DNA of 64,000 bases. Source: Bacteroidota bacterium. GTDB taxonomy: Bacteria; Eisenbacteria; RBG-16-71-46; SZUA-252. The position numbers were made by a program, and so were the translations under genes. This document shows, piece by piece, positions 53,524-53,736 of this stretch. Numbering within the stretch: position 1 is the stretch's first letter; each line of letters starts with the position of its first letter. Location of the stretch: assembly GCA_050257045.1 (NCBI GenBank), contig JBLMWD010000093.1:21242-85241 (forward strand), in the 5' to 3' direction. The notes under the pieces were generated by a model. The model was not told where the DNA came from. It was given only the letters and a program-made list of their open reading frames with translations, and searched no databases.

Positions 53524-53543
53524 CTTGACCGTCAAGGATTGAC
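53524..53543. promoter_or_regulatory. Candidate enhancer/UAS: three alternating TTGAC/GTCAA half-sites (CTTGAC-C-GTCAAG-GA-TTGAC)
   Basis: A perfect 6+1+6 inverted repeat overlaps a second inverted repeat about 115 bp upstream of the sigma-54 -24 element. It sits in a lower-GC intergenic island. Confidence 0.35.
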
Positions 53544-53646
53544 GACTCCCCCGCCCCGAAGCGCCCGCTATTCCCTCGCACTTCGCAATGTCGTAAGTGG
53601 CTGCAATTAAATAGACTGCCGACAGCATCCCCTCGAAACATGCAAA

Positions 53647-53662
53647 TGGCACGACGGCTGCT
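53647..53662 (+). promoter_or_regulatory. Sigma-54 (RpoN) -24/-12 promoter TGGCACGacggCTGCT
   Basis: It matches TGGCACG-N4-TTGCW at 11 of 12 defined positions with exact GG/GC spacing. It lies 75 bp upstream of the first small peptide ORF on the same strand. Confidence 0.55.
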
Positions 53663-53736
53663 CTAGCACATCTGCGTCGAGGCGCTCGCAAACGGCGAGC
53701 AGACGAAAGCAGACCTAAATCAAGGTGGGGTGAACA

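What the first reader, a model, noticed from the sequence alone, without database searches (positions are those of the whole stretch)
53524..53675. Near-consensus sigma-54 promoter with an upstream TTGAC-repeat candidate enhancer driving the small-peptide genes
TGGCACGacggCTGCT (53647..53662) matches the RpoN -24/-12 consensus at 11 of 12 defined bases with exact spacing. It predicts a start near 53672 and a 65-nt leader to the first peptide gene. About 115 bp upstream lies CTTGACCGTCAAGGATTGAC (53524..53543), three alternating TTGAC/GTCAA half-sites forming overlapping inverted repeats. The spacing is typical for a bacterial enhancer-binding-protein site. An AT-rich stretch between them (53600..53625) could bend DNA in an IHF-like manner. 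The whole 53440..53720 segment is much lower in GC than the surrounding 70%. A single 16-mer match has a non-trivial chance of occurring randomly in 128 kb of two strands, so the argument rests on position and architecture.
Basis: seen in the sequence. Interest (0 to 1): 0.6.

Follow-up and report, generated by a model that had tools for sequence, protein, structure and literature searches.

The report
Conserved sigma-54 promoter for tiny peptides
A textbook sigma-54 (-24/-12) promoter with upstream activator sites is conserved across the uncultured phylum Candidatus Eisenbacteria. It sits in front of a pair of unannotated 18-28-residue peptide genes that lie between a sensor kinase gene and lon.

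Summary
TGGCACGacggCTGCT (53647-53662) is the only match with at most one mismatch to the sigma-54 consensus in the window.

The window comes from a Candidatus Eisenbacteria genome. In 24 of 24 related genomes with enough upstream sequence, the block TGCAAA-TGGCA[C/T]G-NCGR-CTGCT lies 77-99 nt before the first of two tiny peptide genes. These genes encode a hydrophobic stretch followed by an invariant C-terminal GKAGW. The promoter block is 94% identical between genomes, against 47% for the whole spacer.

A second, distal dyad about 64 bp further upstream was not noticed (window 53460-53478). This motif has the same consensus as the GlrR/QseF sites (TGTCN10GACA) at the enterobacterial glmY/glmZ sigma-54 promoters.

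The IHF-like element is supported only weakly, and least of all in the window. A conserved terminator-like hairpin after the second peptide gene suggests a separate peptide transcript, with lon on its own promoter.

Three things were not shown: rpoN and an activator gene in this phylum, the transcription start, and the peptides' function. This is a new, well-supported member of a known promoter class, driving a peptide family that matches no Pfam or NCBIfam model.

The parts
51615..53423 (+). Sensor histidine kinase (dCache_3-HAMP-HisKA-HATPase_c), with no adjacent response regulator. It is the candidate signal input.
   Evidence: Pfam domains. Its position directly upstream of the promoter is conserved in most Eisenbacteria loci. 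NCBIfam finds no GlrK or NtrB equivalog, only generic kinase hits below cut-off.
53440..53455 (.). Possible third, most distal activator site. It reads GAC-N10-GAC in relatives and GTC-N10-GTC in the window.
   Evidence: Conserved columns GACAA...GGACA in the 24-sequence alignment. Its function is inferred only.
53460..53478 (.). Distal upstream activator dyad. The window has GTC-N10-GAC at 53460-53475, and GTC-N7-GAC / GTC-N10-TAC in the frame starting at 53463.
   Evidence: GTC-N10-GAC clusters at -180 to -203 from TGGCAC. The block has a mean pairwise identity of 0.61. It is also present at -183 in the divergent locus L154.
53531..53546 (.). Proximal upstream activator dyad, GTCAAGGATTGACGAC (GTC-N10-GAC).
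   Evidence: GTC-N10-GAC occurs 31 times in 24 spacers, against a shuffle mean of 1.3 and maximum of 5. It clusters at -103 to -130, and the proximal and distal dyads are 64-65 bp apart in 17 of 24 loci. A perfect dyad lies at -115 in L154.
53577..53588 (.). Conserved block CGCA-N4-YGCA, of unknown role. It could be a second factor site or part of the bend region.
   Evidence: Mean pairwise identity 0.61, against 0.36-0.41 in the neighbouring spacer segments.
53594..53620 (.). AT-rich segment at the position where relatives carry an IHF-core-like CAA-N4-TTR. The match in the window is weak.
   Evidence: The best-match position clusters at -41/-42 in about 10 of 24 loci, and L003 has a perfect AATCAATGGATTA. 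The window scores 6 of 9. The mean best score is 6.63, against 6.27 +/- 0.14 in shuffles.
53641..53662 (+). Sigma-54 promoter: the invariant upstream TGCAAA, the -24 element TGGCACG and the -12 element CTGCT.
   Evidence: Mean pairwise identity is 0.94. No sigma-70-like promoter is found in 53300-54400.
53672..53675 (+). Predicted transcription start, 11-14 nt after the GC of the -12 element.
   Evidence: Inference from sigma-54 promoter geometry. It has not been mapped.
53684..53700 (+). Leader hairpin: GCTCGC, loop AAACG, GCGAGC.
   Evidence: The stem is present in 20 of 24 leaders. 91% of cells are paired, and 3 of 5 pairs show compensatory changes. Slid controls give 16-52% paired.
53712..53731 (+). 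Conserved CA-rich tract (ACCCAAACC in relatives) followed by the Shine-Dalgarno sequence GAGGTG (GGGGTG in the window).
   Evidence: Alignment columns are nearly invariant. Mean pairwise identity is 0.69.
53737..53823 (+). pepA, 28 aa: MSAIAIAILLALFSATAFDNTGGGKAGW.
   Evidence: ORF. A tandem pair of this family is found in about 27 Eisenbacteria loci. GKAGW is invariant while its codons vary synonymously.
53896..53982 (+). pepB, 28 aa: MAATAILILLALFGATALDNTGGGKAGW (GTG start, Shine-Dalgarno GAGGAGGTG).
54077..54132 (+). Terminator-like hairpin followed by a T-rich run, between pepB and lon.
   Evidence: The consensus structure has 18 pairs in 26 sequences, and 6 pairs show compensatory change. 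In the window it folds at -36.5 kcal/mol with a z-score of -3.75. Relatives carry TTTTG or ATTTT after the stem.
54241..56838 (+). lon (ATP-dependent protease La), the downstream neighbour. It is probably transcribed mainly from its own conserved upstream block.
   Evidence: Pfam domains. A conserved block G(T/A)TGATACCGTGGC lies upstream. A similar GTGTATGATGG is present in L014, which lacks the peptide module.

Best explanation
The segment 53440-53736 is a complete enhancer-dependent sigma-54 promoter region.

Proposed mechanism:
1. RNA polymerase carrying sigma-54 binds the -24 element TGGCACG and the -12 element CTGCT (53647-53662) as a closed complex.
2. An NtrC-family enhancer-binding protein binds two, possibly three, dyad sites (T)GTC-N10-GAC(A). 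These are centred about 135 and 200 bp upstream of the start (window 53531-53546 and 53460-53478).
3. The AT-rich DNA between them bends or is bent, possibly by an IHF/HU-like protein. ATP hydrolysis by the activator then opens the promoter.
4. Transcription starts near 53672-53675. The mRNA has a leader of about 65 nt with a small 5' hairpin and a strong Shine-Dalgarno sequence.
5. The mRNA encodes two paralogous micro-peptides, pepA and pepB. Most transcripts probably end at the hairpin at 54077-54132, before lon.
6. The most likely signal input is the sensor kinase encoded immediately upstream, acting through an unlinked response-regulator-type activator.

Shown here: the sequence elements, their conservation, positions and spacing, and protein-level selection on the peptides.

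Inferred: sigma-54 and activator dependence, the start site, the kinase link, termination before lon, and what the peptides do.
For: Promoter in the window. It is the only match with at most one mismatch to the consensus. It lies in a 313-bp low-GC spacer and points at ORFs with Shine-Dalgarno sequences.

Origin. The lon neighbourhood identifies Candidatus Eisenbacteria.

Conservation.
- In 24 of 24 loci with at least 300 bp of upstream sequence, TGCAAATGGCA[CT]G-NCGR-CTGCT lies 77-99 nt before the first peptide start codon.
- Pairwise identity is 0.94 in this block. It is 0.47 for the whole spacer and 0.36-0.41 in neutral segments.
- Four lon loci without the peptide genes also lack the site.

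Reverse test. A metagenome scan with the promoter pattern returned 14 Eisenbacteria-type hits. Thirteen have two GKAGW ORFs downstream. The fourteenth, L176, shows one because the held sequence ends about 250 bp after the promoter.

Activator sites.
- GTC-N10-GAC occurs 31 times, against 1.3 expected, at two fixed positions 64 bp apart in 17 of 24 loci.
- The divergent locus L154 has a different kinase and a different peptide. It keeps perfect dyads at -115 and -183 and the same promoter.
- The same consensus, TGTCN10GACA, with IHF dependence, is documented for GlrR at the sigma-54 promoters of glmY and glmZ (PMC3045617).

Exclusions. No sigma-70-like promoter and no Rfam family is found in the region.

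Plausibility of sigma-54. [quoted passage not shown] The window encodes SurA and a YidC with a periplasmic domain.
Against: - No rpoN and no GAFTGA-type activator gene lies in the 64-kb window or in any fetched Eisenbacteria locus. Presence of sigma-54 in this phylum was therefore not demonstrated.
- The adjacent kinase is a generic HisKA kinase, not an NtrB/GlrK equivalog.
- L030 keeps the promoter without the kinase.
- The window's own dyads and IHF-like element are more degenerate than in relatives. The distal site reads GTC-N10-TAC in the conserved frame, the site spacing is 68-71 bp rather than 64, and the IHF match is 6 of 9.
- The related sequences are not statistically independent.
- There are no expression data.
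Confidence: 0.85

Rival explanations
1. The 16-mer is a chance match to the sigma-54 consensus and has no function.
For: One match with at most one mismatch is expected in about a quarter of shuffled windows: mean 0.30, and 26 of 100 shuffles give at least one.
Against: The same 22-mer sits at the same position in 24 of 24 orthologous spacers that are otherwise only 36-47% identical. It is also present in 14 metagenomic relatives and in L154.
Confidence: 0.01
2. The conserved block is recognised by something other than sigma-54. It could be an operator for a repressor or activator, or the promoter of a different, unknown sigma factor of this phylum. On this reading the GTC-N10-GAC dyads are ordinary transcription-factor sites.
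For: The invariant TGCAAA and the invariant CG inside the spacer go beyond what sigma-54 alone usually requires. rpoN was not shown for this phylum. Sigma-A promoter rules for this phylum are unknown, so the sigma-70 scan may miss a native promoter.
Against: The invariant positions are exactly the sigma-54 determinants: TGGCA, then 10 bp on, TGC. The spacing never changes, and variation is confined to one -24-element position (C/T) and two of the four spacer positions. The upstream dyads lie 110-200 bp away, which is enhancer geometry rather than operator geometry. The same extended motif occurs next to GAFTGA-type activator genes in other taxa.
Confidence: 0.09
3. The conserved blocks act at the RNA level, inside a transcript reading through from the kinase gene. 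They would be processing or stability elements, and there would be no internal promoter.
For: The kinase gene and the peptide genes are on the same strand. No clear terminator follows the kinase stop in the window. Part of the region does form a conserved RNA hairpin.
Against: The dyads have 3-4-bp arms with 10-nt spacers, which is implausible as RNA structure. No consensus RNA fold was found for the leader as a whole, and there is no Rfam hit. L030 lacks the kinase but keeps all the elements. L154 has a hairpin directly after its kinase stop codon.
Confidence: 0.04

Closest known systems
GlrK/GlrR (QseE/QseF)-dependent sigma-54 promoters of glmY and glmZ in Enterobacteriaceae (PMC3045617)
   Same: Both have a sigma-54 -24/-12 promoter. 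Both have several upstream activator sites with consensus TGTCN10GACA, here (T)GTC-N10-GAC(A). Both have IHF-like elements between sites and promoter. In both, a sensor kinase gene is next to the small gene that is driven, and the product is a very short transcript.
   Different: The product here is a two-cistron micro-peptide mRNA, not a small regulatory RNA. The adjacent kinase is not a GlrK equivalog, and no activator gene is linked. The sites number two, possibly three, and the two clear ones are spaced 64 bp apart. The phylum is very distant. The half-sites are only 3-4 bp, so the motif match could be convergent.
Classical NtrC/IHF-type enhancer-dependent sigma-54 promoters (glnAp2, nifH, Pu, pspA)
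   Same: Near-consensus TGGCAC-N5-TTGC-type core. Dyad activator sites 100-200 bp upstream on the same helical face. An AT-rich or IHF region lies between them.
   Different: The -12 element is CTGCT in every member. An extra invariant TGCAAA lies upstream of -24. The IHF consensus is weak in many members, including the window.
Small membrane-protein feedback regulators of two-component systems (for example MgrB with PhoQ/PhoP). This comparison rests on my own knowledge.
   Same: A very small hydrophobic peptide is encoded next to, and plausibly under the control of, a sensor kinase pathway.
   Different: There is no sequence similarity. The peptides here are 18-28 aa, which is shorter than a typical membrane span in some members. 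They come in pairs, carry an invariant C-terminal GKAGW and sit before lon. No functional evidence was obtained.

Membership tests
Sigma-54 (RpoN)-dependent promoter | GG at -24 and GC at -12 separated by exactly 10 bp, within TGGCACG-N4-TTGCW | tested here: met
   11 of 12 defined bases match at 53647-53662. GG and GC and their spacing are invariant in 24 of 24 orthologous spacers.
Sigma-54 (RpoN)-dependent promoter | Intergenic position, correct orientation, and a suitable distance to a downstream gene | tested here: met
   The site is 90 nt before the pepA ATG in the window and 77-99 nt in relatives. The spacer is non-coding and low in GC.
Sigma-54 (RpoN)-dependent promoter | Upstream activator (enhancer) sites about 80-200 bp from the promoter | tested here: met
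   GTC-N10-GAC dyads lie at about -116 and -181 to -193 from TGGCAC. There are 31 occurrences against 1.3 expected. Binding itself was not tested.
Sigma-54 (RpoN)-dependent promoter | No competing sigma-70-type -35/-10 promoter | tested here: met
   No promoter-like sites were found in 53300-54400. The caveat is that the native sigma-A consensus of this phylum is unknown.
Sigma-54 (RpoN)-dependent promoter | The genome encodes sigma-54 and at least one AAA+ enhancer-binding protein | not testable with these tools
   None is present in the window or in any fetched locus. Indirect support only: these proteins are near-universal in diderm LPS bacteria (PMC3162934).
Sigma-54 (RpoN)-dependent promoter | Transcription starts 11-13 nt after the GC and depends on rpoN and the activator | not testable with these tools
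   This needs 5'-end mapping and genetics or in-vitro transcription.
GlrR/QseF-type activator sites | Several copies of TGTCN10GACA upstream of a sigma-54 promoter | tested here: met
   The GTC-N10-GAC core is at two fixed positions. The flanking T is present in 13 of 24 proximal sites, and the flanking A in 17-21 of 24. The published consensus is from PMC3045617.
GlrR/QseF-type activator sites | Cognate GlrK/GlrR two-component genes linked to the target | tested here: not met
   The adjacent kinase gives only generic kinase hits below every equivalog cut-off. No response regulator or activator gene lies nearby.
IHF binding site | WATCAANNNNTTR between enhancer and promoter | tested here: inconclusive
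   The window's best score is 6 of 9. Relatives score 7-9 of 9 at a shared position (-41/-42) in about 10 of 24 loci. The overall excess over shuffles is small, 6.63 against 6.27 +/- 0.14.

The most novel reading that the evidence does not exclude
The promoter is the output of a phylum-wide stress circuit that has not been described. In this circuit an orphan dCache sensor kinase signals through an unlinked GlrR-like activator and sigma-54. The output is a pair of roughly 20-residue GKAGW peptides. These peptides then act on the kinase, as MgrB-type feedback regulators do, or on the neighbouring Lon protease as a degron, adaptor or regulator. On this reading the promoter controls a new class of micro-protein effectors. 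The peptide genes are below the length limit I recall for common gene callers (about 90 nt; not checked here).
Probability: 0.3. Interest if true: 0.7.

Novelty: new member of a known kind. Interest (0 to 1): 0.5.

Why it matters
This is the first concrete, comparatively supported regulatory element for Candidatus Eisenbacteria. The phylum has no cultured member, and I found no paper in the searched library that mentions it together with sigma-54 or rpoN.

The promoter predicts that these organisms use sigma-54 with a GlrR-like enhancer code. It also flags a conserved, unannotated pair of micro-peptide genes. These have 28 codons or fewer and match no Pfam or NCBIfam model. They are wedged between a sensor kinase and lon.

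The architecture is clean enough to test directly in a heterologous sigma-54 host. The promoter itself is of a well-known type, so the main value lies in the annotation and in the peptide cargo.

Tried and rejected
- Peptide DNA pattern. An exact pattern for DNTGGGKAGW found nothing in the genome or metagenome collections. It was too specific, because only GKAGW is conserved.
- Peptide homology searches. The peptides are below the 40-aa minimum of the protein homology search. They have no Pfam, NCBIfam or PDB match. A literature search for 'GKAGW' returned nothing relevant.
- Source genome. Two window proteins are not on record in the contig look-up, so the source genome could not be walked.
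- Other sigma-54-like sites. The match at 45089-45104 (-) lies inside the signal-peptide coding region of a PDZ protein and was rejected.
- Possible lptB-rpoN cluster. The ABC ATPase gene at 6052-6864 turned out to be ftsE, followed by ftsX and an M23 peptidase gene.
- RNA searches. Rfam gave only a chance microRNA hit. RNAalifold found no consensus fold for the whole leader. Only the short hairpin holds up when tested directly.
- Kinase. The NCBIfam scan did not identify a GlrK or NtrB type. A homology search with the sensor domain returned only 5 proteins and no informative context.
- Literature. No paper links Eisenbacteria with sigma-54.
- rpoN search. I considered a protein search with an rpoN query and did not run it. 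Only the 8000 candidates sharing the most words with the query are scored, so a query from a distant phylum was unlikely to surface an Eisenbacteria sigma-54.

Full report
**The observation**

TGGCACGACGGCTGCT occupies 53647-53662 on the + strand. It matches TGGCACG-N4-TTGCW at 11 of 12 defined bases with the canonical spacing. CTTGACCGTCAAGGATTGAC occupies 53524-53543.

The 313-bp spacer between the stop of a histidine kinase gene (53423) and the first small ORF (ATG 53737) has 50-61% GC. The flanks have about 70-78%.

The site is the only match with at most one mismatch in the window on either strand. About 0.30 such matches are expected per window, and 26% of shuffles contain one. At two mismatches the window has fewer matches than chance predicts, 5 against 10.4. 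One of these, at 45089-45104, lies in the signal-peptide coding sequence of a PDZ protein. Taken alone the 16-mer is therefore not significant.

**Genomic context**

The window is a chromosomal origin region with 70% GC.
- It carries dnaA, dnaN, recF, yidC, mnmE, mnmG, rsmG, parA and parB (Pfam). The two ORFs after recF sit where gyrB and gyrA would be expected, but I did not scan them.
- It also carries surA-type chaperone genes, ftsE, ftsX, an M23 peptidase gene and a MoxR/BatA cluster.
- No ORF is a sigma-54 or an AAA+ enhancer-binding protein.

Around the finding the gene order is as follows:
- M16 peptidase and rumA on the - strand;
- then, on the + strand, a secreted protein, a dCache_3-HAMP-HisKA-HATPase kinase (51615-53423), the spacer, two 28-codon ORFs (53737-53823 and 53896-53982), and lon (54241-56838);
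- then three - strand ORFs with no family hit.

**Relatives**

Searching the species-representative genome collection with Lon returned 31 loci at 73-92% identity. Most are labelled Candidatus Eisenbacteria, and all share this synteny. Gemmatimonadaceae Lon is only about 49% identical.

About 27 of these loci carry a tandem pair of very small ORFs directly upstream of lon.
- They are 18-28 codons long. Each encodes an N-terminal hydrophobic stretch, a Gly/Pro-rich linker and an invariant C-terminal GKAGW followed by a stop.
- Each ORF has a strong Shine-Dalgarno sequence, GAGGTG or GGAGGTG.
- The Gly and Ala codons of GKAGW vary at synonymous positions while the residues never change. This indicates selection on the protein.
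- The two copies within a genome are more alike (75%) than orthologs between genomes (59%).
- The peptides match no Pfam, NCBIfam or PDB entry.

**The promoter is conserved**

In all 24 loci with at least 300 bp of upstream sequence, TGCAAA-TGGCA[C/T]G-NCGR-CTGCT lies 77-99 nt before the first peptide start codon.
- In a MAFFT alignment of the 330 bp upstream of that codon, T-G-G-C-A, the following G, and C-T-G-C-T are invariant.
- The only variable positions are the C/T at the sixth base and the first and fourth bases of the 4-nt spacer.
- Mean pairwise identity is 0.94 in the 22-bp block (53641-53662). It is 0.47 over the whole spacer and 0.36-0.41 in the stretches between conserved blocks.
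- Four lon loci whose upstream synteny is broken (L009, L014, L026, L031) lack both the peptide genes and any such site.

The reverse test agrees. I scanned the metagenome collection with TGCAAATGGCAYG-N4-YTGCW.
- The scan returned more than 120 hits from many taxa.
- Fourteen hits came from contigs with 64-68% GC and an NCGR-CTGCT-type spacer. Thirteen have two GKAGW ORFs downstream. The fourteenth, L176, shows one because the held sequence ends about 250 bp after the promoter.
- Several hits from other taxa lie beside GAFTGA-type activator genes, so the extended motif is used at sigma-54 promoters elsewhere.
- No sigma-70-like promoter and no Rfam family is detected in 53300-54400.

**The enhancer**

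- Across the 24 spacers, GTC-N10-GAC occurs 31 times. The shuffle mean is 1.3 and the maximum 5. Other spacings are at background, except N7, which arises from a GACGAC tandem.
- The occurrences fall in two clusters, at about -103 to -130 and about -180 to -203 relative to the T of TGGCAC.
- The best site in each cluster is 64-65 bp from the other in 17 of 24 loci. That is about six helical turns.
- The position counts give (T)GTC(A)-N8-10-GAC(A).

In the window the proximal dyad is GTCAAGGATTGACGAC (53531-53546). The distal one lies in 53460-53478. It reads GTC-N10-GAC from 53460, and GTC-N7-GAC / GTC-N10-TAC from 53463. The spacing is 68-71 bp because of small insertions. A further conserved pair, GACAA...GGACA (window 53440-53455), may be a third site.

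Locus L154 provides an informative outgroup. It has a different, polytopic NtrB-like kinase upstream and a different 24-aa peptide (MFAIIAKLAVLAGEWQWIGEWQWF). It nevertheless keeps perfect GTCA-N8-TGAC dyads at -115 and -183, the same TGCAAATGGCACG-N4-CTGCT promoter and a similar leader start.

The dyad consensus equals the published consensus for the activator GlrR (QseF), TGTCN10GACA. Three such sites and IHF sites precede the sigma-54 promoters of glmY and glmZ, next to the kinase gene glrK (PMC3045617). The adjacent kinase here is not a GlrK equivalog, and the half-sites are short. This is therefore a resemblance in mechanism and motif, not evidence of membership.

**The bend region**

Between the proximal dyad and the promoter lie two further conserved features.
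- The first is the block CGCA-N4-YGCA (window 53577-53588; identity 0.61).
- The second is a TAA...CAA-N4-TTR element. The CAA-N4-TTR core is the core of the IHF consensus. It recurs at -41/-42 in about 10 of 24 loci, and L003 has a perfect AATCAATGGATTA.
- The overall excess over shuffles is small, 6.63 against 6.27 +/- 0.14. The window copy (53604-53619) matches only 6 of 9 consensus positions.

The IHF idea is plausible for the family but not demonstrated for the window.

**The transcript**

With the GC at 53660-53661, the start is predicted at 53672-53675, giving a leader of about 65 nt.
- The leader begins with a conserved CGTC.
- It has a short hairpin (53684-53700). The stem is present in 20 of 24 leaders and 91% of cells are paired. 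Three of 5 pairs show compensatory change, and slid controls give 16-52% paired.
- A nearly invariant ACCCAAACC tract precedes the Shine-Dalgarno sequence.

The 200-260 nt between pepB and lon are unusually conserved.
- They contain an 18-pair hairpin in all 26 sequences, and 6 pairs show compensatory change.
- A T-rich run follows it. In the window the hairpin and run span 54077-54132, folding at -36.5 kcal/mol with a z-score of -3.75.
- Next comes a G-rich segment and the block G(T/A)TGATACCGTGGC.
- L014 lacks the kinase, the peptide genes and the sigma-54 site. It still has GTGTATGATGG about 55 nt before lon.

The simplest reading is that pepA-pepB form their own transcript of about 460 nt from the sigma-54 promoter. 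lon would have a promoter of its own, with read-through possible.

**What is not shown**

- I could not establish that Eisenbacteria encode sigma-54 or an activator. Neither is in the window or in any fetched locus. The genome-collection scans were exhausted, and window proteins are not in the contig index.
- No paper links the phylum to sigma-54. Indirect support comes from the near-universality of sigma-54 and its activators in diderm LPS bacteria (PMC3162934). The window encodes periplasmic SurA and a YidC with a periplasmic domain.
- The start site, dependence on rpoN, the identity of the activator, the link to the neighbouring kinase and the role of the peptides are all inferences. L030 keeps the module without the kinase.

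**Verdict**

- There are two dyads, redefined as GTC-N10-GAC.
- The IHF element is weak.
- The peptide transcript probably ends before lon.

As a promoter this is a new member of a well-known class. What raises its interest is its conservation across 24 of 24 testable Eisenbacteria loci, in an uncultured group. Its cargo also matters: a micro-peptide family that matches no Pfam or NCBIfam model. At 87 nt including the stop, the window's peptide genes are shorter than the roughly 90-nt minimum that, as I recall, common gene callers use; I did not check this.

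Noticed in passing
window 53737-53823 and 53896-53982; L001-L030 upstream of lon: A family of tandem micro-peptide genes of 18-28 aa, with a hydrophobic N-terminus and an invariant C-terminal GKAGW. It is conserved across Candidatus Eisenbacteria and has no Pfam, NCBIfam or PDB match. 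The two copies within a genome are more similar (75%) than orthologs between genomes (59%), which suggests concerted evolution.
   Followed up: partly
window 53983-54240: The pepB-lon spacer is conserved across the sampled Eisenbacteria loci. It holds a hairpin with a conserved loop AGGGCGAAC (about 54041-54066) and an 18-pair terminator-like hairpin with a T run (54077-54132). These are followed by a G-rich segment and the block G(T/A)TGATACCGTGGC (about 54185-54215). A similar block is present before lon in L014, which lacks the peptide module, so it may be lon's own promoter or 5' UTR.
   Followed up: partly
L154:2560-3219 (JGI contig Ga0315273_10148126): A divergent relative of the module. 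It has a polytopic NtrB-like kinase, two perfect GTCA-N8-TGAC dyads at -115 and -183, and the same sigma-54 promoter. Its peptide is different: a Trp-rich 24-aa sequence, MFAIIAKLAVLAGEWQWIGEWQWF.
   Followed up: partly
window 53577-53588: The conserved block CGCA-N4-YGCA lies between the proximal dyad and the promoter. Its function is unknown.
   Followed up: no
window 53684-53731: The leader carries a small hairpin with compensatory changes and a nearly invariant ACCCAAACC tract before the Shine-Dalgarno sequence. These may affect translation or mRNA stability.
   Followed up: partly
L001, L003, L011, L015, L020, L030 (record titles): MAG records labelled Omnitrophota, Limnocylindrales, Acidobacteriota, Binatia, Dormiibacterota and Hyphomicrobiales carry the Eisenbacteria lon synteny and the GKAGW peptide genes. 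This probably reflects binning or labelling errors.
   Followed up: no
L009, L014, L026, L031: These Eisenbacteria lon loci lack the kinase, the peptide genes and the sigma-54 site upstream of lon. In L014 a divergently transcribed gene sits there instead. The module is therefore either lost or located elsewhere in those genomes.
   Followed up: partly
window 56848-61170 (- strand): Three conserved syntenic ORFs downstream of lon, of 104, 241 and about 1020 aa, have no Pfam or NCBIfam hit.
   Followed up: no
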